The notes beneath the pieces are model-generated. The model worked only from the letters and a program-made list of their open reading frames with translations, ran no database searches and was not told where the DNA came from. Below, piece after piece: positions 9,880 to 64,000 of a DNA stretch of 64,000 nt. This DNA comes from Tubiluchus corallicola (lineage: Eukaryota > Animalia > Priapulida), in assembly GCA_030141605.1 (NCBI GenBank), contig JAQGDQ010000038.1, positions 682,001 to 746,000 of the forward strand, read 5' to 3'. The position numbers and the translations under genes are program-made. The first letter of the stretch is position 1; the number at the start of each line of letters is the position of its first letter.

Positions 9880-10030
9880 AATCCAGGTAAAAAAGTCACT
9901 GGTAAAAAATTACATAAAAAATCGTAGGAAAAAAGACACAGGAAAAAAACCTGATCCTAACATTAGCCCGAACCTCTAATCCTAGCCAAAATTAAATGTG
10001 ACTTTTTCCTGTGACTTTATTACCGGTCAC
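9880..10030. mobile_element. Short foldback MITE-like element
   Basis: ggtaaaaaagtcac... at the left is mirrored by gtgactttttcctgtgactttattacc at the right, with internal sub-repeats and a cctaa-rich centre. Confidence 0.55.
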
Positions 10031-10778
10031 CAATAAGGGATGCGTTGTGGATATTCTTAATCCATTTCGCATCTTTAATGACTGTCCACTCGCACCCCTT
10101 TTTACACCACATATAGATACATATACTGATTTTGCATTTGTGGGTCATTAAAACCTAACCTGTGCTGTATTAGCAGAGCGCGTCGGGACGGATACATGTT
10201 GAATTTAGATTATCTGTTTACAATACTTTAAATATATCTGGTTCCTAGTAGATTTTCTAGGACCACATTTCCTAGGACAGGACAGCAGATGACGTCATCA
10301 CTGCCCTTGGCATACATAATATATTTCTTTACATTTTATGGCGTCACTTGCAAGTTATGAACAAATACTTGAAAGTTTATGAGTGGATAGGGGGTACTGA
10401 CGACGTAATTTGGCCACTTCATGTGTTCTAATGTCACTAACGGTATCACTAAATGAAAGCCGATATATAACTTTCTATTCGTCCCAAATGTTAAAAAGTG
10501 TCTATCTGGGACAGTTTTGGAGTTACAAGCCTCTAAAGTGCAGGACCATATTTTGACATTTTAATGTCCCGGGACAGTGGGCCAAAATATAAAATGTTAT
10601 AAAAATGTCCAAAACGCTGTTGGAATGGACTAAAAAAATTATTCCTGGAAATTTGGTACCCGTATCTAGTTAGTCCCCTTTTTTTCGGCTAACAGCCCGG
10701 ATTATCTATGATACATCACCAAAATGAGTATGTCATACTGTTGTGGTAATAACATACTGTAACACAAATAAAACTTAA

Positions 10779-19139: not shown

Positions 19140-20480
19140 ATGCTCAGAAAGCCAAGGTGCTAAATAAATTTTTTGCCTCCGTTCTATTCGCTCATCTAAC
19201 TGTGAATCTATCATTTATACTGTTAATATTACACCAGACAGTAGGAAAGCAAGAAAATGAGGAAGCTGAAGAAAGACCATGAAAGTAGACCAGATAATAT
19301 TCACATTAACATTTAACATACTTTGAGAGGGTAGCTAATCCATTATTCTGTATGTTCAATCGTTCAATCTGGCAGGGAACCTTACTGCATCAATGGAATG
19401 ATGCAAATATGTGCCAATATTTCAATGGTTTGAGAAGTGGTAAATTATGGTCCCGGTGACACTTACTAGTCAGAATCGGATAGTTAAACTGCTTGACAGG
19501 TTTAGTCTGGATGTAGTTCAACAGACCATGTAATACAAGGTACAATATATCATCTGTGTAAGCAACATGCACTCCAAGCTAGATCTTCGTGCATTACTCA
19601 GTTGCTTGCGGCTTTTAATGACTTGACAAGTAACTGGGGTGACAAAGTTCTCACTGATATCATTTACCTTCACTTTGCAAGGCTTTTGATACTGTTGCTT
19701 ACTGCATCAATGCTGTACAAGTTAGATAATCTGCAGTGGATCGAAGCTTTTTTGTAGGCACCAACCGATAATTTTGCAACAGTCATGATCTTCATGAGAA
19801 CTGGTCTCAGTTTCTTAATGACCCTTCCCTCCCATCTAGTGGTATTTTGTACAACGATTTTAGGAAGGTATTTGATTCTGTTCATCTTCATACTCTCAAA
19901 TTAAAATTAGAATTCGCAGATAAGAGGTAATCACCTCCAATAGTTTCAATATTTTATAATGCGCAGACTTCTAAGAGCAGTTTTAAATGGTCTAACTACT
20001 TCCTGGAGAAATGTAACCAGTGGCATTCCTCAAGGGAATTTGTCGGGCCCCTACAGTTTTCTCATTTTTATCAATGACATTACTGATTGTGTGTCATCTG
20101 ACACACATACATTATTTTGTTGGTGATATAAAACCTTACCGTCCCATTAGAAACACCTCTAATCAAGAAATATTACAAGCAGACCTATATGAAATTGAGC
20201 AATGGGGTGACAACTGGTTAATATCCCCCCAAACACAGTGAATGAAGCACACTTCGTATTCATTCTAATTCTGCAACACCTTATTATGAGACATAGTGTT
20301 ATTGAAGAAAAAAACAACTGTATTTGATTTGGGAGTATTAACCTCAAACAACCTGAAGTTAACTATCATGCTGAACATATTATTTCTCAGGCCAATAGAT
20401 GCATTAGAATGTTAAAACGCTACTTAACGGAAAACGATCTGAACTGCAGATGCATACAAAATTTCAAGACATATTAAGCA
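19140..20480 (+). mobile_element. Degenerate non-LTR retrotransposon (CR1/Jockey-group-like RT relic)
   Basis: Ordered but frameshifted RT motifs: KAKVLNKFFASV (~19149), PDNIH, WNDAN..PIF, NY.PVTLTS, F(A)KAFDTV (~19675), SGIPQG..GP (~20019), FIND, (F)VGDIK as the FADD equivalent, LQADL..IEQWGDNW. Many stops; interrupted at ~19760-19980. Confidence 0.8.
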
Positions 20481-20979
20481 CTAGTAAGTAGTAGATCTTC
20501 TCGACGTAGTTCTAATTTACTTCAATTTTATGTAACTATGTAAAGAAATTTAGAGAACTTTGTAATTCATTATTAACGACAAAGTACGTCTTATTAACTA
20601 TAAACAGATTGTTAATTTAAGTTAGAGTGCAATGAATCGTAAGTAACTCACGCCAACTGTAGATAAGGTATCATCGAATAAAATCGGCATAATTAAACAT
20701 AACATGATAGTCAAATGCTTACCAATCAGACAAAAGCAATGTAACTAAGTAATAAAACGATTCTAGTAAATTTTTGAGCATGAACGTCGCTTTCCATTCT
20801 AGATCATTATATTATAAGAAGCACAAAACCGAAAGCTAAAATCATCACATAGTCCACAAAAAACTTCAGCTACAAAGCTAGTCTTCAACGAAAATAGAAC
20901 CTACTTCGCCCTTTACTACCACTGTGTGTCAGCACTTTACAGGGCGATGTCCATAGATATCTATATTGTTGGGAAACAA

Positions 20980-21990
20980 TGTTGGGAAAACGAACCGGGA
21001 AAAATAAAATGATAATTAATTATATCAATACAATAGGAGGTGAGCTGAAAGTGGGAGATTGCTCAACAGGGGTTACACTAATGCTGTACGAGCTTCTTTC
21101 AGTGAGTGCAGTGCTAAATAGTTCTGAGACATTGTCAAATTTGACAACAACTGACTGGGAGAAATTAGAAATGATTCAAGCAAATGCTTTAAAAACCTTA
21201 TTTAATCTTAGTGAATCAACGCCATACTGGTGATTAGTAACTGAAATAGGCATATGGCCTCTAAAACATAAAGTGAATTATAGGAGATTGATGTTCTATC
21301 GGAATTCACCAATTAGTAAACCAAACAGATTAGCATCAGAGGTACTCGAAATGCAAATAAACAGTTTACATGAAAGGTCATGGTATAATGAAGTAGTTGA
21401 GGCTGCAAAAAATATACCATAGATGCTAATAAAGAAAGGGTGAAGGTCATGAAAAAGTCTGAATGGAAGAAAGAAATAAAGAATAAGATTGGATGTTGTA
21501 TAAAGAGCGAATGTGCAGAAAAATGCAGGAGCAGCACTAAATTAAGATTTTTAAGGCATACCGAGTGGAAACGACAAAATTACATAGACACATGCAAGCC
21601 AGAAGAGGTTAAAGATATATTGAAAATAAGACTGAATATGATTAAAGTTAAGGGGAACTACAAGAATGAGTTTAAGGATCAGTTATTATGCCCAGTGTGT
21701 GAGGAAGATGATGACACTACTGAACATATGCTTAGATGTTACAGATATGGAGAATGGAAAAAAATTTTGAACTCGGAAGTATTAATGAACAGTGAAAAGG
21801 AAGGATTGCTAGAAATTAGAAATCTAGTGAACGAATGTATGGAATACAGGATAAAGACAAATAAAGACATTAAACTTGGAAAAGACAAATAAAAGATCAG
21901 CGTTAAAGAAGAAGAGACTTTGCACCCTATAAAGGTGCCCGCCTCGGATAGGTGGAGAGAGTCGAGTATCGCAATCGTAATCGCAATATA
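20980..21990 (+). mobile_element. 5'-truncated LINE fragment (ORF2 C-terminus plus 3' tail)
   Basis: Broken ORF LN.SETLSNL...LEMIQANALKTLFNL.ESTPYW*...EIGIWP..., continuing into the 150-aa ORF 21440-21892, which has the LINE C-terminal zinc knuckle CPVCEEDDDTTEHMLRC. Ends in a short (atcgca/atcgta)n tail at ~21968-21987. Confidence 0.8.
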
Positions 21991-22784: not shown

Positions 22785-22826
22785 GTTTCTCTGCCTCTTT
22801 GTCTCCATAAGCTGGAGGAGGAAAAC
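22785..22826 (+). promoter_or_regulatory. RPS2 polypyrimidine (TCT/5'TOP) start site and non-coding exon 1
   Basis: tttctctgcctctttgtctcc followed by gaaaac|GTAAGT donor at 22827. It would splice to the acceptor at 24241-24242, two bases before the ATG, a layout typical of ribosomal protein genes. Confidence 0.75.
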
Positions 22827-23037: not shown

Positions 23038-24244
23038 TTGTTGCGGGGAGTGGCGAGTTGCCGACGACCTTGAACAATTGCTATTCTGTTTTCAGAATTA
23101 CTAAATACCTTTAGCATATATTATTAAAACAATATATTTAGTTAGTTCTAAATAAATGCACCTTCTTTTAAAGATAAAAGTCGACTTTGGTGATAAAAGT
23201 TAAAAATCAGTGTCGGTAGTCGATAGTTATGGCATTTGGGCATAACTGATACTTTTTGAAGCGTAAATTTTGCTTTTTTAGTCTATATTGCCTCTGTTCT
23301 TGTTTTATGAAAATATCTTGTACACTGACATGGCAGTTAACGATTTTGCATTTTTAGGTTATAAGGTTAAAATGACAGCCTGATATCATTAAAAGGGAAA
23401 AGTAGTATTTGAATGTTTTTCATTTTGTTAAGTTTCTAATTCATTTATTTTCAAAAAAGAAAACCGATTTGAAACATTACTGAGGCATGTGTAACCAAAT
23501 CCATATTTTACAATTAGGGGTTAGAGTTGCCACTGAATTCCACACCACTTTTTATTTTAATTCTAAGGTTGTCCTTTATTAAATTTGATTTATGAACACA
23601 AAACAGCGAAATATTTTGCCTTCTCTTGTCCTCGTCCTGCATGCTTTTATTATATGTTCTTACTGGATAGTAATCAGTCAGAAGCAATATTTTGGATTGC
23701 TTATTTACGACACCTAGACAGGCTACAACACCATTTTGCTCAGCAGTGGATTCAGACCACACATGGTTGTTATCAGGGCAAACTAAACTTTGGCCATCCG
23801 TGTACAGTGTTTGTCCTTGTGTGTGATACTTTTCTGGTTAATGCTGGGATACTCAGTGTTTCCAGGCTTTAGTGCAGTGTTAAATGGTGTAACTTTGATG
23901 TACTTTGTTTCTGTATATCAGTCCTATTGTCTGCTAAGAGACCGCATTATGACTGCAGATTTCAAATTAGTTTGTCTCAAAGTAATTCACAGTACACTAA
24001 AATTTAGCCTAATATAATATAATTTAGCAACATTTAGCAATTGCAGTTTATTTATGTTGTAACATGGGAAGTTAAAAAGGGTAATGCAAAATGTACAGTA
24101 AAGTGTGTTAAAGTGCTTATAGTTCAAAAGAAGAAGACATGATAAGGTACATCTTGTATCTGCCTTATATAAACTTGAGGGCCAAGCTATTTGCTTTGGC
24201 TACATCGATATCACATAGTTTTCTTTTTCTCTTCTTTTGCAGCA

Positions 24245-27256
<3,012 letters not shown>

Positions 27257-27362
27257 GCAATGAGTTCATTTTTGTGTGGGCAGTGCAATTACTTACATAA
27301 TGTCTGCTTGTCTCATGTTGGCAAAACCTGTTTGGCAATGTACAATGTGTTGTTATTTGCGA

Positions 27363-28430
27363 CATGAATGAGGGAGGGGAGGGATTTGCTGCTTAGAAAG
27401 CTGTTAAGTGGCAGAAAACTGTCGAGTACCCAAAGAGGTCAAAGTGGTCCCTAAAAAGTAAAAAAAGAAGGGTCTTTGACAAAGGGTAAATTCTCGCAAA
27501 GTGACCCCTAAAGAAGGGGCAAAAGTCCAGGGTGGACAAAGATGTCCCAAATGTTGGGGCGCAAGTGAACCCCAGTTGAGGGGAGTCGTCCTGTAAGGAC
27601 ATTGGGCCTTGAGTTGCAGAGGCATTCGTGATCTAAGTGGTAAGATTCTATAAAGCTCTTGATTCCGAGCATTTAATTCACTTGTATATTGCTGAAGTCA
27701 CTTTGCCAATGCTAGACTTGCAGGTGATAAAGTAAACAATTGCACTGCTTTTTTATTATAACTGTGCTATCAAGTGTTTTGTTTCAGGTGTTGTGTGTAA
27801 AAACGCAAAAATGTTAAATTTAAAAGAAACTGGTAAAAAACAATTGTTAAGATAAGAAGCCTAAGAAATAAGAAGGCTGAGAAAAATAGTTGTATAAATG
27901 ATGTTATGGTGAAAGAAAGTGCAGAGCAGAAGTGATAAAATATATAGAAATAGGGAATGTTGTAAAAAAAATGTTGAAAACTAGGAATAACAAGCACAGA
28001 AAACAAGAAAATCCAAAAAAAGTTGAATTTGTAAAAAAGTGGCAGAACAGTGCCGTTGATGTATGCAACTTTGTTGCAAAAATGTTGTGAGAACACAACT
28101 ACCGTAAAACAAGTGTAACTATTGTTACAAAATCGTGTTGAAGGTTACATAGCAATCCTGGGCTACAAGAACCGTTTCGGGAACATCTCCCCAACTGATG
28201 TTCTGTAGCCCCTCCCTGTACTAGATGTACGGGAATGTCTACAGGTGCGATGTTATGTAGCTCACATTCGTTGCGACGGGCTGACGGTGCCCTAGCAATC
28301 TCGGGCCACAAGCGCCAATTCGGGGATGTCTCCCCAATGATAATCCTGTGCCAGAAACATGGGCAGGAGTCGTGTCTTCGGTGTACGTGGCGAGTGCAAC
28401 ACTCGCCCGTATAATCAATGCTGCGAAAAA
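27363..28430 (+). ncRNA. Putative long structured non-coding RNA or structured 3' extension downstream of RPS2 (family unknown)
   Basis: Two GC-richer domains (27363-27630, 28134-28425) consist almost entirely of nested inverted repeats with + strand G-U pairs. They are linked by an A-rich tract with small hairpins. No credible ORF. Confidence 0.55.
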
Positions 28431-30086
28431 AGGAAAATTGCAAAAAAAGTATTGTAACTAAGCTATTTAACGAGATGGTCACACTGTTAATGAATACTTG
28501 GATTGTCATCTTTCAGTAGTTAACAGTCTTGTAAGCTGCTAAATAATAAAAGTGTCCATCCAGTCTCCATCGTGTTCAAGTTTTTCTATTGTTATTGTGA
28601 TCTTTTTGTTGAGACAAGTCGAAGATTTCTCTTCACTGTGCAGAAAAATGCAATGTGTTGCAGTATTGTAACCATATAAACCACTCATCTGCTCTGTCAA
28701 AGTGTCTGTAAGATGAGATAACTGAACCATGGTGCTGTTACTCTGAATGAAACATTGGTGTTGCTGAATACTGCTAGAATTTTTCATTAGCCTAATTGGT
28801 GTCCAAGAGAGATTCCGGTTGTAATAACAAAAACATTTTTACAAAATTAATTGGTAGTACAGTATACTGCTATCATCAGTGTTGCTAAGATTATTTTTGG
28901 CCTAACAAAAACTAGTGTCCAGATTTAACAGTCAAAATATTTTTACGAAATATGTGCTTGCATGCATCACAGTTCTTGACAAATTATTAATGTTACAATC
29001 AAATTTAGGGTGTTTCTAGACGTGCGAAATGACTTAGTTCTGGATGATGCTTATACAAGCTAGCTTATGGTCGGCGGCAACAACTAACAAAAATAATGTT
29101 GAATTTCACATTTCCTTATTCTTCCGCCCCGACGTTCTTTCTTCCTAGGGCTTTGAGTTTATCTACTAATTATGTGCAGTTGGCTTTAAAATGCTGGCAC
29201 TCTTCAAGTGGAGATAGGAGCCAAACTGTAAAAGTCAGGTCAACTGTCTGGGTGAAATTGTCAAGGGCAGTGGAACAGTTTGCATCACCTCTAGCCTTTT
29301 TGTGTATAATTCATGTGTTACAAGTATTTGGGTATAATAGGGTTAGACGTAGACGTTGTTTTAAACAGCTTAACGTTTTTCAATGTGTAAAATGGGATTT
29401 GATTTTGTCGTATCAGGGTTAATATAAACAAGGAAAGGTAAGGTGTGTTCCAAAAAAAACGTGACATTTGGACATCAATAAAATTTCATGTTGTGTCTAA
29501 TTTTTTATTTTCGTTTATAAAACTTAACGAATCATTAATTTTGGTAATTTACAGTATTTTTTAAGATTCATCACTTTACTAAATTAAATTGATCAATTTC
29601 TTATTTTTCAGTATTTCGTGTACGTGTAGTTTCTAAATGAACGAAGCAGAAGACAGTTTAGATCAGCATTTTATTAAAATATGACTGAACTTTGATTCAA
29701 AAATATCTAGCCTATCATAAAAACGGGTACAGTAATAAAAAATCTATGCACACCAAAACAGCTAGTGCATCATTCATTACAGCATTTTGCGAGTAGCGGA
29801 ATGCTCCATGTAAAGCAAGTTAAGCCATAGGAAATTTTGGCACTCACCATAGGTTGTTATGAGTCGCTGGTTGTAAAAAGTTTTATGACAGTTATCAAAC
29901 CTCTGGCTTTAGCACACCTTTGATTTTCCCAACGTGACAATATACAGATGGACGAACGTCGATAAACAGCGAAGCTCTACCTCCTGATCCAGGCACTCAG
30001 CACTCCTGCAGTTGCTCTATTATATCAAAAGCTACTTGCAGACAGACGTGGAGAATGATTTGAAATACATAAAGCAAGAGAAAACC

Positions 30087-30470: not shown

Positions 30471-30963
30471 GACAATATGAGCTGAGCGAACCCTTTTCCG
30501 ATTAATAAAGACCCTATTTGTTTTTCAATAATTGGCTTCATTTTTTGTTTGAATTTTTATGCTGATAGATACAAGAGACTGTACGTAGTACTTTTCAGCG
30601 TCAGTGTTTGTTAAGATTGAACTTCCAGTATTTAACAGATTCATCTTCATGAACTTTATCTTGGGGTATTTAATTGTTGTTTGAACCCACACTGCGTACA
30701 TAAGTCTTAGACTGATTACGCACACGTTTAATTTATACCAAGGCACTGCGAATTAATTCTATTGCGCATGTAATTAAAAAGCATTATTTCACAACAAATT
30801 TAAATATATGGGGATTGATATTAAAATACTATGAACGCCCAGCATTTTGGTCGTAGGATTATTATAGGAACGCCTAATTTTGCGCGCATATTTTTGAGTG
30901 AAATGAGTCCTTTTGCGTCATTTGGCTTACCGTGTAATCCGTGTAAATATATAACAGTGACAG

Positions 30964-31116
30964 CCTAGGCAGCACGACAAAATTGTGGACTTGCCATAAT
31001 ATTGTACCTATATTTTTTCCATAATTATTGCGATGTTTTGACAATATGGAAAAAATACATGTATTGCCAAAAAGTATTGGTAAAATATTATGGCAATATT
31101 TTTCGAGTTGCCTAGG
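30964..31116. mobile_element. ~150-bp palindromic (foldback) MITE
   Basis: cctaggcagcacga...ttgccataatattgtacc is mirrored by ggtaaaatattatggcaa...tcgagttgcctagg. Confidence 0.7.
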
Positions 31117-31949
31117 AAATTTTCTGAAATAATTGCTACAAAACGTGCATGCGCCACGTATTTGTGTTTGTTTTTCCAGTTTGCCTGCATAGATTTTATA
31201 TTGTAGCCACCACATATTTGTGGACGTACTGGGCCACGCGTTTCCCTTAACACAACAAACTTTAGTTACATCAAATTTAGCAGCTTGATAGCAGGATGAG
31301 CGATTAAGCATAAATTAGTACATTTGGTGTACTAACCAAATACATGTAATGGTGTTCAAGCTAAATGTATCTAAAGTTAGCATGAGTGTGTATATAAGTT
31401 GCATAAATCAAACTGAAATTGCCCCTCATCTCGTTTGAACTGCTGCGCTAATGATTACTGGGTTAGGCATTGCCAGTCTTTGATTAAGAGATTTATACAA
31501 GTTTACTAAAAAGTAATCAGAGCATTCGTGTTGGTAACACACTCGTAACTAGCTGTAAGCAAAGATATAAATTACTTCATCTTGTCAAAAAAGCAGCTAT
31601 GGGACGGCTGCCCTGAACCAGCCTTGACTTGAGCTAGGCCACGTAGGCCTGAGACATTGTTACATTACTCGATCACGCAAGACCTTTCTGTGTTGAGCTT
31701 CAAATCACACTGCTTATAGTTAAACTTCTACAGGCCTTGTCGTCCATTGCCTGATTAGTGGTACCTCACAACTTTTAATTTAAATCGCAAAGTTTTTTTA
31801 GGAAATGACTGTTGCTTTCGTGGCACAATCGTTTAATTAAAACACCAAACTATAACTCACGATAGTCAGTTAGCGCATGTAAAAACAATGCGCAAACCTT
31901 GCATTTCCCAAGAAACAGCGCTCACTGAATATGGTACTTAAAAGTGAAT

Positions 31950-32469: not shown

Positions 32470-33926
32470 GGCGCTATTGCACTTTCGCACCTCCTACTTT
32501 TTTCTGCTTTATTACTCGTTTCTAGGCTCGTAGGTCATCGTTGAATGTTTCCGATAATCTCGTGATAATTTAGTCATATATCTAATGTATAATTACGTAC
32601 GTAGTAAATTAGTAACTAGTATTCACAGTTGTACACTATACAGTTCGGATCGCCATTATGTTTGTGTAGAGTAACGTGACGAATTTCGTACAGTATTGGT
32701 TTATGCATTATCAGAGCCTAACTTAAAATAATTTCATTGTATACTGTATGGGTCCTGGGGGGGGGGGTAGTGGAAAACAAATAAAAAATTCTTTTTGTTG
32801 TTGTTTCTGTCCACAAAAAGTATTACATTTTGCATAATTTTTTATTTTAGCATTGTTGTAAATGAAGTATAATTATTTGCAGTACTGCCAAATAAATACT
32901 CCCTCCGTATGCTCACAACCCCCGCCTACTGTCTTTTTTACTGTATACTTAAAACAATGGCTTACTCATTAGTTTTAGGGGTTTGTGTAGTCACAAAATA
33001 TTATCGTTAAATTGCTTTTTTGTCGCTTACTGCATATGAATACATTTGATGGCAGCTTTCTAATTGGAATTCACCTAAAAAACCACCCCTCAGGATGTCA
33101 GGACATTTGAAAACACTGAACACCTGCATACTTGTAGTTCCATATGCAATAAATAATTTTAAACTTTCCAAAAGAAAAATATGATTCCTGAAGAATTGAA
33201 GAAAAATAAGGAAAAGAACAAAAAGAAGAAGAATAACAACAGACAGACAGAGACAACAATTAAGGAGAAGAAGAACATGAACAAAAAAGAACAAGAAAAA
33301 TAAAAAGAAGAACAAGAACAGCAGCAGCAGATAGATAAAGAAACAGAACGACAATAACCACAAGAATAGGAACAAGAAAAAGAAGAAGAAAATTACGACC
33401 AATGATAGTGATGATGGTAACGGTTTGGTGGTTTGATAGGTAGTTATGATGTCGCTTAGTAAGATTAATAAAAAATAGCTGGAAAATACAATAAAAATAA
33501 ACATACATATTTTTAATATTGAGAGCAATTTATTTTTGCGTTACAAGTTGACTAACAACTTAACATACATGAAAAACATGTTTGTAGGCCTGTAATTAAT
33601 TATTATAATAATACGACACAAACACCCGTGGGTGCAACTCATAATAATCATAAATTATGTAACGATACTAAAAATACAGGTTAAGGGCCACATACGTCAC
33701 TGCGTGATAGCAACTGTGCATTAATGTGTAAACACATTTATTCACATGGAGCTTCTTGGGTGTGGCGGCGGTAAGTAATGAATAACTTTAATTTGGAATA
33801 GCAATGCCTAAAAACCTATAATACTATGGGAATATCATATATATTATGCCTGTTGGTCTGCTTTATGGCCTACAGGCGTGAAAACAAACAAGAAAAAAGT
33901 AGGAGGTGCAAAAGTGTAATAGCGCC
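32470..33926. mobile_element. Mutator-like (MULE) non-autonomous element in the mitofusin 5' intron
   Basis: ~58-bp imperfect TIRs ggcgctattgcactttcgcacctcctacttttttct... / ...agaaaaaagtaggaggtgcaaaagtgtaatagcgcc, with a perfect 9-bp TSD ttttatgcg (32461-32469, 33927-33935). Internal GAA/CAA low-complexity tract; no transposase. Confidence 0.9.
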
Positions 33927-50584: not shown

Positions 50585-52506
50585 TTTCAGCGTGCTGTTG
50601 TTTCCTGTTTCTTCTTTCACAGTTGGTAAGTTCACAGTTGAATTGCAAAAGATACCCAACACATTTCTTTTGTAGTTGAATAATAATAAGTTTTAGTGTG
50701 CTGCTTCAAAGTGATAATACTAGTACAAATGTTTCTGGAGGAGCTGGACTTGCAGTCAGTCCATATTATACATTGCTGCAGGACAGTACGTACACCTAGT
50801 AGTTAATACCTAGCATTGTATATTGAAATGGCTAATAGCTGGAGTATATTTTTTATTGCTTGACAGCATATGGATAATTACTATATGTACGATGTAAGAA
50901 GATAAAAAAACTTTTTGTTGCTTGAGTTGCACCACAAAAGCATTTGGTGAAGTAAATTTGTCAATGAAATTTTGCAGGCAACTGGAGATGGAAGGCAGGT
51001 GAACAAGGCTCAGGCAAGTGAGGAATGTAAAGGAACTATGGAGTATGGCGAATGGAAACAGGAACACGAATGTACTGCTTCTTGTGAAGTTGGGCCGAGA
51101 ATACAAGTGAGCATTTATTGTACTTGACAAATCAGGTCAACATGCTAATTAATTTTCGCACAGAGAAATTTTGCGAATACGTGCATTTAATGCCAGACAA
51201 AACTAATTGTGTGTGTTTTGTACAAATCTGTTTTATTTATACTACAGTATGTTAAATTTTGAACTTGAAATATGTAAAGCCAGCCTTTTCTAACTAAATT
51301 AGATACAATGACAGTAACAAGTTGCCTTTGGGTTTCCACACAAACTGGGGTTCATGGTTGCCACCTGACGTGAAGTGTTTTCAAGAGCTCTACCTTTATA
51401 TTAAATGCAAGGTACCCAATTGTTCAACTGATACTCCAAACAAACGGATATCTTCTATATTTATACTTGATTATCGAATAGTGCATAATCTTAAATTATT
51501 GTACTAGAAAACTGCTTTGGTTTCCCCCTACCAGGTGTTCACAAAATAATTTAGAAAAAGCCATTTCAAATGCTGTTGCTATACATGTATTTTACAATTT
51601 AATGAACTGGATGTAGTATAACTTTTTGTCATGACTGTCATGTTAGCTAGGCTTTATCTCTTGCAGACGTTCACAAGGAAAGCTTATTGCAAAGACAAAA
51701 AAGGAACATACACAGAGTTTACCAAACAGAAAAGATGCACAAGAGATCAATTAGAAAAAGAATATTATGTGAGCTCTCAATTAGAATGGATGAATGAAGC
51801 ACCTTTCAGTTCCAGAAATGATGACAGTGAATATGACACCGACGAGGAAGAAAGTCAAGACAACAGTACAGGAACTGACACAGAAAATGATGGTAAGCAT
51901 TCACGACACACATCACTAAGACGAAAAAAGAAAAAGAAGAGAAGGAAACGTGTCGATTACTGTAATATGAAAATTGTTATATGCAACGATGATTCAGACT
52001 GCAATGAATCGCCAACCATGGATGCAAATACAATCACAACTGCAGGAACCACGGTGACTGAAACAACTGCAGATCAAATTTTGACAACCCAAAGTCGAAG
52101 AACGGAGCATCTACGAACTACAACCACCACTACTAAAGGTACAACTATGGCTAATACGTCGGAAACTACCGAGGAACCAACAACAAAACGCCGACGTAGG
52201 CTGCGACCACGAACTACAACTACCACAACTGAAGGCAGAACATCAGCAACTACAACAGAAACAGTACAAACTGTAGAGAAAGAAACAACAACATCAACAA
52301 GACGAAGACAAACACAAACACAAACAAAATACCCAAGAACTACAACTACCACAAATGAAGGTACAACAGTTATATCAGAATCTGTAGAAGCTACTGAGGA
52401 ACCAACTGCATTATCTACTGCCAAAGGTACAACTACACCAATAGGGACAATCACTGCAAACAAACTGGAGGCTGTTGCATTTGTGGGAACTACTTATGAC
52501 AAGTAA
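50585..52506 (+). CDS. Putative secreted protein with a TSP1-like Cys module, acidic and polybasic tracts, and a Thr-rich mucin-like tail (start exon unresolved)
   Basis: In-phase exons 50585-50625 (.SACCCFLFLLSQL, signal-peptide-like), 50978-51106 (ATGDG...CKGTMEYGEWKQEHECTASCEVGPRIQ) and 51668-52506 (TFTRKAYC...RRKKKKKRRKR...TTTTT repeats, TAA). AATAAA at 52629. Confidence 0.65.
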
Positions 52507-53802: not shown

Positions 53803-56800
53803 CTAGAATGTGTGTGCATTTCGACACACACCACAACCAAGTGCAAACTCTTCACCAGTGGGTGGATGCTTTACGTGTAGTGGACACTCATCACCTTCTA
53901 ATTGTTTGGCTCTGGGCCCTGCCGGACAGGTTGGTAAATCAGACTTAAGAATGCTCGTTACACGCTGAAAATCATCATGACATGGCCCGCAAAAATGAGT
54001 TGTTCCAAAACAAAAGAACACAGCCACGGAGCAGCAGTAACGACACTTGTATTCCAGGAAGTCCGGCCCATGCCGTGGACACATCTGAGCACGAGATACA
54101 TCTGAACATGCTCCACACACTAGTTCAGTAGGATCGTATTCATCCCCTATGCCCGCCTCAACGTCACATCGGGCTTCACCACCATAATATGCTTTTTTAC
54201 ATTTGAAACAGACATAATAAGCATACCGTTCCAATGCAAAGCCAGCAGGGTCATTGTAAAATCTGGCACCGGGTGTCACTATTGTCTCAGAACTCATCAG
54301 GCCCTCATACTCGAGTCGCATCAATGCTTTGCGACGAACATCTTCATAAAGAGCATGTATTGGTGCTAGTAAATCTTGCAGGACCTCATGATCAATCTGA
54401 GCCTATGAAAATAAAATTTTGGATTAGTATAAGAAACATCCAAACAAAACAGTAAAACACAAGAACAATCAGAAATACATATTTGGTCAACTGCACACTG
54501 AGACATGATACATTTCAAAAATAAAAAGTTTGCTGTTATCCTATTTTACCAATACCGCAAAATGACTTCTGTTAATGGGAATGGTCTGCTTAGCATCATA
54601 TACTAGTAGAACCACAGTAAGTTTGTTCAAAAATCTTACCAATGAGATTCTGCAAAAAATATTCTGTTTTTGTCATTTGAAACTACTTTATACCATCATT
54701 TAAACAAAATTCACATTCACAGTGAGTCCACGTACTGTAAGTACAACATCATTATAGCGAACCTCCTACTCTATAACCATCAGGAAAAAGTACTCTATAA
54801 CCAAGATACTCTATAAGCATACACGACTGATAATATGTGTATGTCTACTAGATGGACAAGCATTTATTAATAATAAAAGTACATAAATAATGTACAATGT
54901 GTGGCTTCATAGAGGACGTAAAGTACTTCTAGAAGATGCTGTCAAGTACCAGATAATTTGCAGCATGTTCAGATTCAGTAAAAAGCATTGTGTGTGATTT
55001 CAGTACGCTAAAAATTAATATAAGTTTCTCATTCGTGTAAACATTTAGCTGTAAATTTACATGACATATGTTCAATAAACTCAAAGAGATTCGAGAAAGT
55101 TGGTCAGTTTTCTGCATAAAATTTTTGTTTGTCCCTTATATAAAAAGTTTTCGCTGAATGCCTGCCAGTGGAATGGAGTGAGCTGCCAGTGTACGTACTC
55201 AAACAGATGGGCGCCTAGCCGCTGCATGAGTGACTCATCATTTTTATGCAGTTAGTAGACAAAATAATCTTTCAACACGTTAATGATTCGCACTTTATTG
55301 CAGCACCAGAAATGAGAAGTTAAATTTAATTAAAAATTAATTTGCAAATGGCTGGCAAAGCTAAAATATGAGATAAAAACTTATACGTCCCCTTTACAAT
55401 GTTAATGTCGCATAACTTTGGAAATTTGTTTCCAAATACATAAATGTCTATATTTGCACAGAAATGTATGTATTCATGCGCTTCATTATAATGCCAACTT
55501 TCGTTAGGGAGGTTTCACTGTAAATACATAAAAGCAAGCAAATAACTAAGTATGCTATATTTAAAACTATTGTACTAATTAAATGAATGGTGAAAGTTCG
55601 TTCTTTTTTGTGAACTGGCATTACCAGCATGTATGCATTAAACCATGGTCGCTATAATGGTGTTTTACAGTATAAAAACTCAAAATAACCAAGACAACTT
55701 TTGAATGGAGTGAATTAGCCAAACTGTTGGACAGCGACTATTATATGTCTGTGTTTGTAAAACAGGAAAGCTGATTTAAAGTGAAAAACAAAATCATATA
55801 ATTACAGTAGACTTACGAACAACACAAACTGTGAGTGAAAAGAGTTGGAGATGAGGTTATTTAATGCTCTGTTTGATGTCGTAGGTGTAATTGGCTGAAG
55901 ATAGCCACTAAGCTGTAGAAACATATCAATGAAGTTCAGTAATGTTTTTCTTTTACATTTTTGGTGTTCTTATTTTTAACTAGACATTGTTTCCCACCTA
56001 TTAACAGTGCATTTTAAATTATACAGAGTCAAGTACCTTGCAAATCGGACATGTGCAGAAGTTGAAACTGATGCGAGGTCCTGCCCATCTTTTTGTCAAT
56101 ACATTTTTGGCACAGTGCAGATGGAACACATGAGTGCATTTTAGCTGTATTGCAGGAGCACATGAGAGTGCCTCCGTAAAACATATCATGCACATATCAT
56201 CAGCATCTTGCTTTAGTGCTGCTCCCTCTTGGCAGTTATGTAGGCATGGCAAGCAGGTTGTTTCCCCGCTGATTCCACCACACTGATGACCACATGGAAG
56301 CATCTTTGAACAAGCATTTTTAGAGTATTCCTGACAGTCCGTTTCATTGCATACATTTCCTATAGCAAGAAGACTAGAAGCCGACGGTCGACCACAGAAG
56401 CGACAACTGCCCAGTTCTGACCCTGGGCCTTTTTCGCGAGACACATCACGGAATTCTACCATCGCTTTAAGCGTGGTGGAGTCTGCCAGAGCCATTACCC
56501 AAAAAAGTTTTGTCCTGCCACAGCCTTCATGAAGATCAACTCTTATCGCTTCTTCTTCTTCCTTGAATACTTGTCTGAAAAAAGATTTAAGCTGTTAACT
56601 AATATTAGCTGTTGTAACTAATACTCCTAAAATAACAATTTAGAATTTTAATCTTTCTACCTCAAATTTTGCATTCTTTAAGAAACAGGTTGCATATTGC
56701 TAAACAAATTGGTTATAAATTTTTTGACATATACCATATATACTTATGTACAAGTCGAATTTTTGGGAGGAGATTTCAAGGTGAAATTTTTGGGGTCGAC

Positions 56801-59800
56801 TTATACTTACGATATGTTTTTGGGAGACGTCGCCAAAGAGTCGTCTACAATACGAATATGTAAAGAAATAATCCTTCATTATACGCTGGACTGAATGAAC
56901 ACTCATACTGCGATACTTCACATCAGAGAATGTTTGCATCTTGACATTACTTCACAAAATTAACAAATATTGCTGTAATTTATGTTAATGTATGTGAAAT
57001 TAAGCTAAAATTTATATATTACCGGTAAATAAACTAGCGGCACTTCCACGTATCTTACACACTAACACAGTAGGCTATTCATTTATTACAAGGCCATTGT
57101 TGACATCATTTACTCTGGAAGATCTTAATATTTTATGGTCGACTTGTACACAGGTAATATATAAAATGATGCAATTTTTGGTCTTAAAATGCACATCGAC
57201 TTGTACATAAGGTCGACTTGTACACACGTATATACAATATTTGCCCAAAACATGTCAAATGGCACTTTGCTGCTAATGGGCTCCTACAAATTAAAACTGG
57301 AACACATGCAGAAACAGCTTAATGAACAAAAGATGTGAAATGGTAATTACATGGTAAGACACCCACCTGTGATGCATTCTTGTTTTTCGGTGCAAGTGTA
57401 GAAACCTGTCACAGTCTGCACATAAATTTCCACATAAATTGCACAGAATAATGGCAACTGTTTCTCCATCATCATGATTATCACATGTGGGACGAGGCTG
57501 ACCCTTTGCCGACGCTTGTGCTCCAGCTACCCACTGACCAGAAGATAATTTTTCCACGTGTTCTTTATCTAGGACACAAAGAGAGGCCAATGCCAGCCAC
57601 AATGTGGGTGTCTTTAGACACTCGGCAGGTATTCTATACAATTCTGATAATTTAGTCAGTGAAAGAATGGCCTGAGCTATCGCAGATTTTGTTATGTTTG
57701 ACCAAGCTTCTGTCAGTGTACCTGCCACCATGTCTTTTAGCAATTTTATAATCAATTCGGCTAATGTTCGATCCATAGAACCGCGCAGCCACCATCGTGA
57801 GCCGACATAGTTACCGGAATTCATGGTTAGTGCTAATGTCACGCGCTCTAAGCCTTTCAACCCAGTGCTTCGCTTCTGTTTTACCTGCACACTCAAAGAT
57901 TTTGCAATACAGCCGAGTAACATATCCAGAATTCCTACTTGATTAGGATCATGGTCACCATGAGATATACTAGTTTCTGAGGAATTAGCATCTATTCCAA
58001 AGTTGCAGGGAGGAAGAGCGGTAATACCTAGGATGTTAGCTAAAGTTTGTGGAGACACTTCAGGCAGAACACGTCTCAACAATGAGACAACCTGACGCTG
58101 TACACGAGGCGATGCTGTATGCAACAAAGTGAATAAATCTTGCAGAAGACTGTACTGCTGTGCTAAGTAACTTCGACCAACTACCGATCCACTAAGTGCT
58201 AAAACCATAGACAGCAACTCAAAGCAGTAAGTATCAGAAGCTCGTGATGTATCTTGAGAGTGTGGACTAGAGCTTAAATTAGTGGCCCACTCGTCATGCA
58301 CTCGAACAGTCTCTTTACAAATAGCCATTACAATGTGGGCGCAAACTTGCTTCTGCAGATGACTGAGCTTGCTGCGGCTAAACAAAATACCAACCATGTG
58401 TTCCTTTAAGTCATTCTCGCTCTCACTGACTTCCATTTTGTCATCAATCCTTTCTTCTTTGCTATAGTCAGCAACACTTCCATCTTCGTGTATCAAGCGA
58501 CCAAAAACTTGTGAAGCTAAAAGCCTAAACACTTTCAGTGTTTCGCTTTCACAATTTCGGCTTTGCACTCTAATGGCCGACACTTGCTTCGGAACAGGTA
58601 GTAGCTCACCTTCCACTTGTCCAAGAACTTTAATTTGTCGTACTCTCAGGGTGTTATCTGGACCACGCAGATCAACTCGAATCACGCTGAGTTTTACTGT
58701 TCTATCGAGAAAGCAGTTCACCCACCCGTAATGCCGACTTTCAAGATCAACTGCACTAATTTTATTCATCTCCTCTGCTGTTGTACCAGCACTGAAAGCC
58801 ACAGAACCAACTTTGTATGCTAGATCCCTGGAATTATCAATGTGAACATAGACTGCCAAAGGATTAACTTGGTCCTGACATGTCAGAGTGATCTGTTTCG
58901 TCTTGTTTCGATCTTCCTCACCACTTTCCCAAAATGTTTCTGTGGAGCCGTCAGTCAAGCTGCCAATCATTGCTTGTCGACTAGAGACCTTTACATCTAT
59001 CATAGTCGTAAAATCTTTTAACATTTCAACTTTGCTTGTGATCTTTTCTACATCCATCATTGGATTCTCCTCGGCTGTCTCATCCGAATGCGACAAGATC
59101 TGGCTAATGTTACTGAACACATGGCTTTTGTGCAAGAATAAATGATCTGACTGCTTAAACTTTAGACAAAAGCACTGCATTGCCATCTGCTGTACTGAGC
59201 TGCCAGTTGGTAGCAACATCATGATGTCAGAGATCGTTTGCAACAAAGTATGGAAAGCGTCAGTGAGCGGTCGCACTGCCTCACCAGCAATACTTATGTC
59301 ATCAAGCGGATGTTCACACACGCCAACATCCAAGTCTTGCTCTTTTTTCTCTAGTTGCTGTTCTTCAACATCTGTAGACAGGACTGGTAACAAAGCAGAC
59401 ACAAGGTGCCACAAGAGATCATGTAAGCAAACAGTCTGAGTAACACTGCACAGCAGCCAGTTTAGTGCTTGCATTGCATATATTTTGCACGTTGCTTTCC
59501 GTAAAGCATGCATCATTGCAGCCCGCAATCCATCAAGGTCATGTCTCTGTATGATAAAAGTCATTACAGACCTCGTCAGAATGCGATCGGGGGAAGATTC
59601 TGCAGCTGCCAGTTTGGTGAGGAGTGCACTAGGATTTCGTAACAAGGAAGAACTGCCGTCAGGGCTGCTGCACCCACTGCTGTTGTTGCGTTTCCTGGTT
59701 AACATGATCCGCTGTTGGTTCCAGTCGTTGTCGCCAGCTGACACAGAACGCTGGAACGTTGTCCGCCGCATTAAATCAACATCACTCATGGGACTGCCTT

Positions 59801-62800
59801 CAGCGCTAACAGCCATTCCTTGTGGACTAGAATCTGTGCTAGAAGCTCCATCTGCACTTGGTAAGAGCAGTTTGCCAGCACCATGGCAAGCCGAAGTAGA
59901 ATGCCAGATGCCAGATGCTGGAATTCCGATGCCATTGAACATAAGATGCTCACTGGCTTTATTGCCACGCATACCTAGTGTATATAGAAATTGAAAGGGA
60001 ACATGGGGAAATGGATTGACATCTGACGGCAAGTTTTCGTTTAGAACTGGAAGGTTGAGATCATACTTGACACCAGGCTGCTTTTTAGCAGGCGTCATAA
60101 ATGGTTCAATGTTTATTTTAACACCAGAAGCAGTGGCTAAGTCCAAAAGAAATAATGCATTTGATTTCATTACCAAGTGAGGTTCCAAGGCAGGAAATGG
60201 AGTATTCTGCCTGGCAGCCGGCAATCGTTTCTTTGGCTTTTTTACTCGCTCTTTTGAAGCTTGACGTTTTAACTGTAGATATTTTTCTCGACATGAATCA
60301 CAAATGAGATACCAGCTACTACCACCGACTCCCCCATCCCCACAGTTACCTGAGAAAGAAAAAAGAAAAACAGTGCAAACAGTTGATTATTTTTCACATG
60401 CCAAACATATTATCAATTATTTGCCACAAGTCTTTAGGCCCGAAAATAAGGGATTACACATTAATTTAATGGAGATGGAATTAGCTTGTAAATTTCTCAA
60501 CAACGGACTTTAATGTAGTTCAGTACAGAATCACAGCTTGTTTAAACACTATTGCTGGGGCATGCTTGCAGTTAACAGATCTCTTGATTTGTATATGACA
60601 GAATCCGTGACACGGTATTTGCTTTGCGAGAATGCTGTTCCATTTATTACATGCAGAATACTAAGTAGAGGCTGTTACATCAGACTAGTTCAGCTGTTTC
60701 ACCTCTTTAATAATTTACAGTACAAACATTTACAACAGTATCTTACCTGCCCATCCACCACATAATGTGCCTCCACTGTTATAACCTTGCCCGCCTGCAT
60801 GGCGTCCACAGCCAGGATGGATTTGTCGCATGTGGAACGTTACAGGATGTGGAAAAATGCCTCCACACAGCTCGCAAAGTGTTTCACTGCCTCCTAGTGG
60901 CTCTCCAAGATCGCCCAAAGAATTTCCTCGTGCACCAAATGGCTGCCGAGGAAAATCTTTCTTTTTCTTAATTTTGCGTTCCTTATCTTTAATTATATCT
61001 GGTTTACTTGCCCTGCAACATTTGATAAATAATGCTTAGCAAGTACTGCGCAGTTTTAACAAATGGCATTTGTTTTTCTTGTGGTATCATTCTTCAAGTA
61101 ACCAATGCAATATGAAAGAATAAAGAAGACAACAAAATGAAACCAATGTAAGAAAAGACCAAATGGTATTAATGAGTCTGATATTACTTGCAAGTAAGTA
61201 AATACACTGTACACTGTAGTGTGAGCAAGCCGTAAAAAATGATGAAAAATACCATTTTATTCATATATTTTGCTTTTCATCTGTCAAAAATCCTAGTAAG
61301 TAAAGTACTTAATGTAGAAATTGGGGTGTGAATGCGGTAAGAGACTCTTGAGTCATCAAATTCTTTTTAATTTTGAGACATTGTTAAAAACCACAAGAAA
61401 TTGTGTTACCTAATAACAGATGGTCCAGTTGCAGGACTTGGGAGTATTAAATGCTGCTTTACCACACGGCCCACAGCTGTAGAAATGTTGTCCCAGAGTA
61501 CCACCAAATGGCGAAGTGCTTCAGGGAGCTCAAGTTCAGGTTGCACTTCTGCAGCCACATTTTTTGTTGATTCCGAATTTCCTTCCCCGCCAGCGAAACT
61601 GTCAGATCTCTCTCGCTTCACACTTGCCACATTTGTAATTTCCTCGTTTAATGCTGCAGAAGTACAAAGAGGTGTTACACTTGTGACGTTGGCATTTACT
61701 GGCAGCCGATGCAATGGATCTGTAAACTGCACTTCGAGCAAATTTTTGCTTGGCACGGCATTAACAGAATGCCTCATTTTTCTTTGATTGGTATTTATTA
61801 CAGCCACAGGTTTGTCTGAAAGTTTGTGTGACTGTTTAGAAAGATTAGGGTAGAATTTTAAAAAAGATGCACAAGCCATTGCGTCATGCGCTATACCTTC
61901 ATGCCACAAAAATGCAGCAAACACTGCTCGTGTACATTCGGCAACACTAGGTGATACAGCCTGTCGCGGGATCTCTTTTTGCTGTAGGTGACCAATAGCA
62001 AGCTGTTCTTTAGGAGCGGGCGAATGAGCATGGTCACGCTTACTTCTCCCTTTTGTACGATCTTTTCTCTGCATCTTAGGTGAAACTCTCACTGCTTCTT
62101 CCCTTAAACCTCCAGTTCCAATACTGAAATGTCCTTTGATATCTAAGGGACTTGTTTGTGTGCCAGTCTGTATTACTCTCTTTCCTGTGGACAGCAGCAC
62201 AGACTCTTTTGTCACAAATGGACCATCATGTTGTTTCAGCAATGGAGATGGCCCTCGTAATGGGCTGCCAGATGGAGAAGAACCAAGGCTTATGCAATCT
62301 TCTTTAAGTGTTGAAGAGAGAGTGCTGCAACTATGCTTCTCTCGTTCCAGTGTCGAAAACGGGCTTGTCGAATCATCTTTTGTCTCTTTATAAACATGGA
62401 TGGTTGCTGGATCCCGGGTTATCCCAGCAGATGGATTTGCCCCAGGACTCGGATGTACCGCACTAGATTTCAAAATGGTAGAATATGGACTAGTCCCTGG
62501 GCTAGGATGTCCTGCTTCCTCGGGTTTTGTCATAGCAAAAGGACTTATTTCTCCACTAGAAATGCTCCACAACGAATCTCTTCTTGACTCGGGGCTTGAA
62601 CAGAAACTACCCCTTAGTGGTGATGGGATAGGTCTGGGACTTGAGCTTCGACTATTGCTCCGTTTTGGAGTGCATGGTGGGCTTCGTGGTGGTGTCACTC
62701 CATTGCCATTAACTCTGCTTTCTCCCAGTGCTTTCACTAGTTCCTTTACAGACATGCCATGCAATTCTGGTGGAATGTCTTTATTGAAACTCATATGACG

Positions 62801-63754
62801 ATCTCTTAAAATAACATCAGGCGGTTTTTCATCTCTCACAACTCTGCGATGTATATCTGCAGATCTTTTAATACTACTCAATGATGGTTTTTCTGGAATT
62901 GGAGGTTTTATTATTGGCACATTACGAGGAACATGTTTAACATTTGTCAAATCACCAATTGCACTATCATCCTGATCAGAAAATACAGACAGATTCGGTT
63001 CGTCCCCTAAGCCGTTTGCAACAAATGTGGGCTGAAGTAAAGGTTGCACTTCTGCTTGAAACACAGAGGAATTGGCTATCACACTACCACCTATAATATC
63101 ATCACATACATCTGAAAGCCCGTTTGACAAAATAACAGTTGAACCAGTATGCAAATCTTGTTTAGTAGATGGCCTAGACAAAGTGCCCATGCGTGGAAAT
63201 TCAGAATCGCCACTACTAAAAAGGCTGCTACAATGCTTTATAAATGACGGTTGTGGTTGTTGAGAAACATTACTAAAATCAAAGCCCTTTTCATCATTTT
63301 TCTCCTTTAACCTCTCATCTACTGCATCATCTTGTTGAAGATAGTAGAGGTCATAAAATGTACGACACAGTGACCAAGCTTCACCTTCAGGATTAAAACA
63401 AAACTTTCTCATGCTCTCTTTATCTAGTTTCACCCAAGTTCCCTCACTGTTGGTAATTTCATCGACTACACCAATCTGATTACCAAGTACTAACATACCA
63501 ACTGCAGCAGCTTTCAGGTTAGGCCGTGTCCTGATATTGTGGCCTGATGATCCACATTTTACCACGCGATATATTCCGCATCCATTTTGCTTGGCTTGAC
63601 CTGTGTTTTCTGTGCAAGATATATCAGGCATTTTGCGCATGATGGTTTCTTTGACAATTTCATCTAGTATTGACTTTGGCTGATCTAATGGTACAAGTAG
63701 TGTCTTGCCCAGATGCTGATTGTACTGTAGTGCCCAAGCCTCTATGTGACTGTT
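53803..63754 (-). CDS. MYCBP2: E3 ubiquitin ligase MYCBP2/Highwire/RPM-1 (PHR family), C-terminal ~2240 aa; the 5' part is outside the window
   Basis: Exons 63754-61410, 61012-60747, 60349-57367, 56574-56037, 54402-53803, all phase-consistent. [51 protein letters not shown] domain ([13 protein letters not shown]), B-box (CDNHDDGET), RING-H2 ([27 protein letters not shown]) and tandem-cysteine domain ending [10 protein letters not shown]. Confidence 0.98.
54735..55670. mobile_element. Tc1/mariner-type MITE in the last MYCBP2 intron
   Basis: TA|ctgtaagtacaacatcattatagcga ... tcgctataatggtgttttacag|TA: imperfect TIRs with TA flanks. Confidence 0.65.
56734..57237. mobile_element. Tc1/mariner (pogo/Tc2-like) MITE in a MYCBP2 intron
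   Basis: TA|ccatatatacttatgtacaagtcga ... tcgacttgtacacacgtatatacaa|TA, with several internal gtcgacttgtaca subterminal repeats. Confidence 0.7.
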
Positions 63755-64000
63755 CTGAAATTAAATAAAACAGGTGTAAATTACATGCAATTTACTTGAA
63801 GGTTTTCTAAATGTAATTTTGATTTTTATGACAGTTACATTTATGGATCTTCTTTTACACATTTGTAAAGTTACCTAAAGCTTAATATTTGTTTCATGGG
63901 TGCAGCTGAAATGGTTTCATTAATAGAGATCGATTTATTAACAAATTGTTACTGAAACAGGCCTGTTGTAGTATACGAATCAGAATAAAAATAACTTAAA

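What the first reader, a model, noticed from the sequence alone, without database searches (positions are those of the whole stretch)
28134..28425. Second ~290-nt highly branched RNA domain (IRES/ribozyme-like complexity)
Seen: closing stem gtgttga/tcaatgc. A long helix ggttacatagca.atc/gat.gttatgtagct leads via cctg/cagg to a junction with gggctaca/tgtagccc, which itself branches into ccg/cgg and gaacatc/gatgttc, plus tccc.gtac/gtacggga. Then come gttgc-gggc/gccc-gcaat; gcgcc/ggtgt enclosing gggga/tcccc and atgat-tcctg/cagga-gtcgt; and gtacg-ggcgagtg/cactcgcc-cgtat. There are many + strand G-U pairs and CpG is retained in an AT-rich context. No sequence similarity to domain A and no TIR/TSD seen. 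The function is unknown.
Basis: partly seen in the sequence, partly recalled or inferred. Interest (0 to 1): 0.78.

Follow-up and report, generated by a model that had tools for sequence, protein, structure and literature searches.

The report
Folded long tail on ribosomal-protein mRNA
This branched RNA fold is real, is found in spliced transcripts of related animals and keeps its base pairs where its letters differ; it sits near the end of what is likely an unusually long (about 1.3 kb) folded tail of the messenger for ribosomal protein S2, where it likely works as a protein-binding control element rather than as an IRES or ribozyme.

Summary
The fold is real: z -4.3, and the most stable and most GC-rich of 436 windows. 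The domain lies 880 nt after the stop codon of rps2 (uS5), same strand. cDNA contigs of two related, about 90% alike animals from two other studies skip the last rps2 intron and run from coding sequence into the downstream region; in one they overlap on into this domain. The only AATAAA lies 120 nt past the domain, before a U/GU-rich tract. So it is probably the distal module of a ~1.3-kb folded 3' UTR: rod domain A (z -7.8), A-rich linker, domain B, terminal hairpin. One hairpin keeps 7 of 8 pairs through two double and three single changes. No second copy in a DNA run, no Rfam match, no downstream cistron, no hammerhead or telomerase-RNA hallmarks. Best reading: a cis-acting platform controlling rps2 mRNA, working like yeast RPS28B's long 3' UTR (function inferred). 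Main rival: a non-coding RNA released from this tail. No family found.

The parts
22786..22826 (+). probable non-coding first exon of rps2 with a pyrimidine tract (5' TOP-like), ending at a GTAAG donor
   Evidence: sequence only; start site and TOP function inferred, not tested
24243..27256 (+). rps2 (uS5) coding exons 24243-24466 (ATG 24245), 25325-25432, 26382-26555, 26806-26965, 27084-27256 (TAA 27254-27256)
   Evidence: Pfam Ribosomal_S5_C E 2e-18; last exon hits 40S protein S2/uS5; splice sites; last intron of 118 nt skipped in X5 and X6 contigs
27280..27748 (+). domain A: long irregular rod (27280-27401 with 27628-27748) capped by a multibranch loop of short hairpins
   Evidence: -165.3 kcal/mol, z -7.8 on 40 shuffles; most rod helices at probability 0.9-1.0; 13 differences in 217 covered sites in X5
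27750..28050 (+). A-rich, C-poor linker (47% A, 8% C), locally unstructured, about 90% alike in relatives with many indels
28064..28129 (+). three short hairpins ahead of domain B; in the third the 5-bp stem is kept and the loop changed in X6
   Evidence: probabilities 0.85-0.99; X6 loose end
28134..28425 (+). domain B (the finding): long left arm 28143-28262 with two sub-hairpins (28160-28211, 28213-28234), then hairpins 28270-28299, 28322-28335, 28337-28373 and 28383-28412
   Evidence: transcribed pieces and pair-keeping changes in X5 and X6
28469..28576 (+). terminal hairpin that contains the poly(A) signal in a largely paired state
   Evidence: -27.9 kcal/mol, z -4.0 on 200 shuffles; pairing of AATAAA
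28545..28610 (+). only AATAAA (28545-28550) on + in 27257-28700, followed by a U/GU-rich tract at 28581-28610; cleavage inferred near 28565-28577
   Evidence: end not mapped directly

Best explanation
The domain is a transcribed RNA fold downstream of the rps2 (uS5) stop codon and is likely the distal module of a ~1.3-kb 3' UTR, where it likely acts in cis as a protein-binding platform that would set the stability or translation of this mRNA, most plausibly as part of a feedback on uS5 supply. Shown: the fold, its place and strand relative to rps2, cDNA contigs of relatives crossing from spliced coding sequence into the region, the single downstream poly(A) signal, pair-keeping changes in three helices, no second copy in a DNA run. 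Inferred: that one molecule runs from cap to about 28570; that this long form is the main rps2 mRNA; that proteins bind it. Least certain (about 1 in 4 on its own): that the sensed ligand is free uS5 or its chaperone complex, as in yeast RPS28B.
For:: X5 record 17 joins 26804-26964 to 27083-27400 and 27499-27583, skipping the 118-nt GT..AG intron; X6 skips the same intron, and its records 26 (27170-28020) and 27 (28009-28191) overlap from coding sequence into domain B; one search adds X6 pieces at 28291-28341 and 28421-28460 and X5 pieces at 28393-28460. X5 and X6 come from two studies other than the possible source; one AATAAA and no ATTAAA on + in 27257-28700, against 33 of 46 other uS5 loci with one within 250 nt of the stop., compared by hand: hairpin 28213-28234 keeps 7 of 8 pairs in X6 with two double changes (U-A to C-G, C-G to A-U), three single ones and the bulged C; 28278-81/28289-92 keeps 4 of 4 (one G-C to G-U) round a changed loop; 28115-19/28124-28 keeps 5 of 5 round a changed loop. 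G-U-forming changes fit the + strand. X5 differs at 14 of 81 synonymous sites (0.17) but at 13 of 217 rod sites and 4 of 60 at 28393-28452. Precedent: RPS28B has a 643-nt 3' UTR whose stem-loop recruits Edc3 and drives feedback decay (PMC3814365, PMC8062979, passages).
Against: No single contig runs from the coding region through domain B to the poly(A) site, and contigs show neither strand, ends nor level (tool caveat). A proximal site with a non-canonical signal is not excluded: a U/GU-rich run follows the stop at 27269. Covariation rests on 30-letter loose ends from two runs; the partners of several changed positions were not seen; X5's change at 28382 would break the gcgcc/ggtgt stem; one X6 contig has 42 letters before 28421 that do not resemble the window's last hairpin. 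The permutation test for pair-keeping in domain A was not significant (p 0.23 and 0.17). No similarity to the flanks of 80 other uS5 loci (best E 0.23), so the element seems lineage-restricted. Nothing here tests function, ligand or feedback.
Confidence: 0.52

Rival explanations
1. The region is a non-coding RNA that hitchhikes on the highly expressed rps2 transcript: it is cut out of the long 3' UTR (or made as a nuclear-retained long form) and works in trans as a two-domain scaffold with an A-rich linker, as Ustilago telomerase RNA is cut from an mRNA 3' UTR.
For: Two large independent folds joined by a conserved, frameless linker is more structure than most UTR elements need. Ustilago TER is 1,291 nt, has two domains and comes from a 3' UTR (PMC9564094, abstract and section 6). 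Domain B's left arm differs at 10 of 56 sites in X6 yet keeps pairs nearby, as scaffold RNAs do.
Against: No Rfam family at gathering score in the window or at E below 10 on domain B. No H/ACA pair, C box, Sm site or RNase P/MRP core motif. Contigs cross from coding sequence into the region and a canonical poly(A) signal closes it. For telomerase RNA in particular: the only 1.5-repeat match (TTAGGC type, 27857-65) has p 0.18 over nine repeats tried and its core is predicted paired.
Confidence: 0.2
2. The fold is the tail of an old mobile element (LINE/SINE or retrozyme-like) that landed behind rps2, displaced its poly(A) site and is carried along, perhaps now domesticated.
For: Other uS5 genes mostly have a signal close to the stop, so the tail is a lineage-specific gain; it is GC-rich in an AT-rich setting; a weak UnaL2 LINE 3' element match lies at 28518-28552 (17 bits against a cut-off of 55, E 6.8); LINE-like remnants lie at 19500-21900 (identified from recall).
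Against: In DNA run X1, read whole at 80% likeness, one contig covers domain B while the repeat at 29459-29700 draws many; no copy in the window; present at the same place in two relatives about 17% apart at synonymous sites, with lower divergence in much of the tail.
Confidence: 0.12
3. It is an IRES or self-cleaving ribozyme.
For: Size and branching are in the range of such RNAs; an ATG at 28418 opens 33 codons.
Against: That frame is broken by a one-base indel in X5's loose end after 28485; the next gene starts about 6 kb away, beyond the poly(A) signal; no Rfam IRES or ribozyme match; no CUGANGA core; only two 5-bp loop-loop complements where IGR IRESs need three pseudoknots (PMC12221177, passages); no match of a 22-nt core in viral contigs.
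Confidence: 0.05
4. It is a GC-rich patch that folds by chance or by local duplication and has no function.
For: After composition regression it ranks only 13th of 872; other windows reach z -3.3 to -3.9; domain A permutation test not significant.
Against: z -4.3 to -5.3 where GC-matched windows give about 0 to +1; adjacent domain A at z -7.8; double-sided changes in X6.
Confidence: 0.07

Closest known systems
Saccharomyces RPS28B long 3' UTR with Edc3-binding stem-loop (PMC3814365, PMC8062979; passages read)
   Same: small-subunit ribosomal protein mRNA with an unusually long, lineage-restricted 3' UTR carrying conserved structure
   Different: here about 1.3 kb against 643 nt, two large multibranch domains against one hairpin, an animal uS5 gene; no ligand or decay effect shown; no sequence comparison was made
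Ustilago maydis telomerase RNA, processed from an mRNA 3' UTR (PMC9564094; abstract and section 6 read)
   Same: about 1.3 kb of structured RNA in two domains behind a conserved protein-coding frame
   Different: no single-stranded template for TTAGGG or TTAGG, no H/ACA domain, no evidence of processing; the host is a ribosomal protein gene
Insect and crustacean RNase P RNA embedded in Pol II host genes (PMC4287351, PMC6797745; search listing and abstract starts only)
   Same: a structured RNA placed inside the transcript of another gene
   Different: exonic 3' position, not intronic; no Rfam RNase P/MRP match and no core motifs
Dicistrovirus IGR IRES (PMC12221177; passages read)
   Same: compact multi-helix RNA of a few hundred nucleotides
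   Different: no triple pseudoknot, no downstream cistron, no Rfam match

Membership tests
Structured cis-regulatory 3' UTR of a ribosomal protein mRNA (RPS28B-like) | lies in the same transcript as the coding sequence, before the poly(A) site | tested here: inconclusive
   overlapping cDNA contigs from spliced coding sequence into the domain and a single downstream AATAAA, but no one molecule spans it
Structured cis-regulatory 3' UTR of a ribosomal protein mRNA (RPS28B-like) | structure conserved in relatives | tested here: met
   three helices keep 7 of 8, 4 of 4 and 5 of 5 pairs in X6, two double changes; fragments only, no formal covariation statistic
Structured cis-regulatory 3' UTR of a ribosomal protein mRNA (RPS28B-like) | binds a factor and changes mRNA decay or translation in response to the ribosomal protein | not testable with these tools
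   needs experiment
Animal telomerase RNA | single-stranded template of 1.5-2 telomere repeats (PMC8480181, passages) | tested here: not met
   best match 6 nt for TTAGGG, 5 nt for TTAGG on +; a 9-nt TTAGGC-type match is within chance over nine repeats and its core is predicted paired; the organism's repeat is unknown
Animal telomerase RNA | box H/ACA domain at the 3' end | tested here: not met
   no unpaired H box and ACA pair round a stable hairpin in my scan; no Rfam match
Animal telomerase RNA | template-adjacent pseudoknot and CR4/5 with P6.1 | tested here: inconclusive
   no U-rich run between 27781 and 28580 for a triple helix; no dedicated pseudoknot prediction run
IRES (IGR type or cellular) | a cistron directly downstream | tested here: not met
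   33-codon frame only, with an indel in X5; poly(A) signal follows
IRES (IGR type or cellular) | three pseudoknots with SL IV and SL V loops | tested here: not met
   no Rfam match; motif and loop-loop scan negative (motif letters recalled)
Small self-cleaving ribozymes (hammerhead, HDV-like, twister) | family catalytic core | tested here: not met
   no Rfam match at E up to 10 on the domain; no CUGANGA on either strand; an undescribed class cannot be excluded
RNase P / MRP, 7SK, snoRNA or scaRNA | Rfam model match or box motifs | tested here: not met
Dispersed repeat or LINE/SINE tail | several genomic copies | tested here: not met
   one contig over the domain in DNA run X1 at 80% likeness; older, more diverged copies not testable without a genome

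The most novel reading that the evidence does not exclude
A lineage of invertebrates produces an abundant, so far undescribed two-domain scaffold RNA of about 1.3 kb by cutting it out of the 3' UTR of a ribosomal protein mRNA, coupling its supply to ribosome biogenesis; it could be this lineage's missing version of an essential RNP RNA (telomerase RNA itself about 3%).
Probability: 0.15. Interest if true: 0.85.

Novelty: new variant of a known kind. Interest (0 to 1): 0.52.

Why it matters
Ribosomal protein messengers in animals are thought of as short-tailed and controlled from the 5' TOP end (recalled; in line with 33 of 46 uS5 loci here). A conserved 1.3-kb folded tail on uS5 mRNA would be an animal counterpart of the yeast RPS28B feedback or scaffold element, or a new route by which a structured RNA rides on a housekeeping gene. 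It also hides its own poly(A) signal in a predicted hairpin, a possible switch. It is directly testable by long reads, probing and reporters.

Tried and rejected
No whole genome is held, so no genome-wide copy search or model search was possible. No RNA holder was listed by the run search; X5 and X6 came in by species label and are taken as cDNA only because they skip the intron. Contig depths were looked at (X5 rises from about 276 over the spliced coding contig to over 400,000 at 28401-28500 and carries a Nextera-type adapter, recalled; X6 is of one order over last exon and linker with dips over the strongest helices) but the tool states they cannot rank parts of a gene, so they are a hint only. 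Parts without cover in X5 and X6 (left arm of domain B, beyond 28600) are not used as evidence. The narrow lay listed no substitutions at 30% share, so only loose ends could be compared; one search showed 40 of 117 difference rows, none beyond 27843. 80 uS5 loci from metagenomes (best 80 of 176): no similarity to the tail and no comparable folded region next to the stop in 23 scanned, though the 150-nt scan is weak, missing most of this UTR too. Exact 22-nt patterns: 0 hits in viral contigs and prokaryote genomes. Rfam: nothing on domain B. Three frames overlapping the region have no Pfam match. Domain A permutation test not significant. A weak X5 contig suggests a 4-bp shifted version of helix 28337-41/28369-73, but it is one low-depth contig and about 1 in 10 by chance (my estimate). 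Taxon: a MYCBP2 exon tree leaves the organism unplaced among bilaterians, weakly near arthropods (89/68, not starred). Earlier-findings look-ups by sequence found nothing. Paper searches listed no description of a long structured rps2 3' UTR; only listings were seen, the library lacks most subscription papers, and the term '3 UTR' matched poorly.

Full report
Observation. The segment 28134-28425 folds on the + strand at -114.4 kcal/mol with z -4.26 and no shuffle of 200 as good; the - strand gives z -3.53. Among 436 windows of the same length on both strands it has the lowest energy and the highest GC; corrected for composition by regression it ranks 13th of 872, while six GC-matched windows have z between 0.0 and +1.2 against -5.3. 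Three (ccg/cgg, gaacatc/gatgttc, gcgcc/ggtgt) are at 0.04 or less, and the closing stem is replaced in context. The fold is real; its exact outline is not settled.

Setting. The domain begins 880 nt after the stop codon (27254-27256) of an rps2/uS5 gene on the same strand. The next gene, mitofusin-like (Dynamin_N; name recalled from the sequence), starts about 6 kb further on. Between 27257 and 28700 the + strand has one AATAAA, at 28545-28550, and no ATTAAA; a U/GU-rich tract follows at 28581-28610. For comparison, 33 of the 46 other uS5 loci that had 300 nt or more after the stop carry such a signal within 250 nt (34 of 80 loci dropped as too short; the loci are not independent and include protists and processed copies).

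Transcription. No genome is held. Two runs with the same species label, from two other studies, are about 90% alike and skip the last rps2 intron, so they hold cDNA. X5 record 17 runs from exon 4 through the last exon to 27583; X6 records 26 and 27 overlap from 27170 to 28191, inside domain B; further pieces cover 28291-28341 and 28393-28491. No single contig spans everything, and contigs cannot give strand, ends or level. The simplest reading is one mRNA with a 3' UTR of about 1.3 kb.

Anatomy of the tail. Domain A (27280-27748) is a long rod capped by many short hairpins, z -7.8. A linker with 47% A and 8% C follows, locally unstructured and kept at about 90% with indels. Three short hairpins lead into domain B. 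A last hairpin (28469-28576, z -4.0) holds the poly(A) signal mostly paired.

Conservation. X5 differs at 14 of 81 synonymous sites in the last two exons (from the rows shown) but at 13 of 217 rod sites and 4 of 60 sites at 28393-28452, which points to purifying selection.

What it is not. In the DNA run X1 (possibly the source) a single contig covers the domain at 80% likeness while a repeat at 29459-29700 draws many. Rfam gives nothing on the domain at gathering score or at E up to 10. Hammerhead, RNase P/MRP, C box, Sm and IGR motifs are absent from the + strand (motifs recalled), as is an H/ACA pair. No cistron follows: the 33-codon frame from 28418 has an indel in X5. A 9-nt TTAGGC-type template match at 27857-65 has p 0.023 alone and 0.18 over the nine repeats tried and its core is predicted paired; animal telomerase RNAs need a single-stranded template, pseudoknot, CR4/5 and H/ACA (PMC8480181, passages; the Caenorhabditis template in PMC12921731, passages). 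No homologue was found in the flanks of 80 uS5 loci, in viral contigs or prokaryote genomes.

How it most likely works. I commit to a cis-acting 3' UTR platform (0.52). [quoted passage not shown] The main rival (0.2) is a non-coding RNA released from the tail, for which Ustilago telomerase RNA, 1,291 nt from a 3' UTR, is the precedent (PMC9564094, abstract and section 6). A domesticated mobile-element tail (0.12), chance (0.07) and IRES or ribozyme (0.05) follow.

Novelty. Five paper searches (listings only) and two sequence look-ups in earlier findings showed no description of such a tail on rps2. The organism is an unplaced bilaterian in my tree; earlier unreviewed notes on this genome suggest a priapulid. 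I rate it a new variant of a known kind, interest 0.52: real and conserved, larger than the finding's coordinates, with its function open.

Noticed in passing
window 26644-26729 (+), rps2 intron: Box C/D snoRNA-like element: C-like and D boxes with a terminal stem; weak Rfam matches to snoR77Y, snoR41 and snoR117 (19-24 bits, below cut-off), sharing a 10-nt stretch with the snoR77Y model.
   Followed up: no
window 27280-27748 (+): Domain A is the stronger fold (z -7.8) and belongs to the same probable 3' UTR; its roughly 85-bp irregular rod could be a substrate for double-stranded RNA binding proteins.
   Followed up: partly
window 28469-28576 (+): The only poly(A) signal is predicted to sit in a hairpin (z -4.0), a possible control of 3' end formation; X5 has a contig running 211 letters past 28595.
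   Followed up: partly
window 28421 (X6 record 14): One X6 contig matches 28421-28491 but has 42 preceding letters unlike the window's last hairpin: a diverged allele, a template switch or a second transcript sharing this 3' piece. Unexplained.
   Followed up: no
window 27857-27865 (+): A 1.5-repeat match to the nematode telomere repeat TTAGGC in the A-rich linker; within chance over nine repeats.
   Followed up: yes
window 53803-63760 (-): The long frames are exons of MYCBP2/highwire (APC10 domain), including single frames of 1031 and 784 codons, not a retroelement.
   Followed up: partly
window 51622-52506 (+): A 294-codon open frame with Thr-rich repeats and an acidic and basic stretch between mitofusin and MYCBP2.
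   Followed up: no
window 9884-10175, 30908-31199, 54706-54997: Other windows that fold well on + (z -3.9, -3.3, -2.9); 30991-31096 has 28-nt inverted arms.
   Followed up: no
window 32470-33926: 44-nt inverted arms 1369 nt apart, like a non-autonomous DNA transposon; a dispersed repeat also lies at 29459-29700.
   Followed up: no
L046, L047, L048 after the uS5 stop: These loci have their first AATAAA about 1045 nt after the stop while close relatives have it at 70-100 nt; no strong fold in between at 150-nt scale (two of the three scanned).
   Followed up: partly
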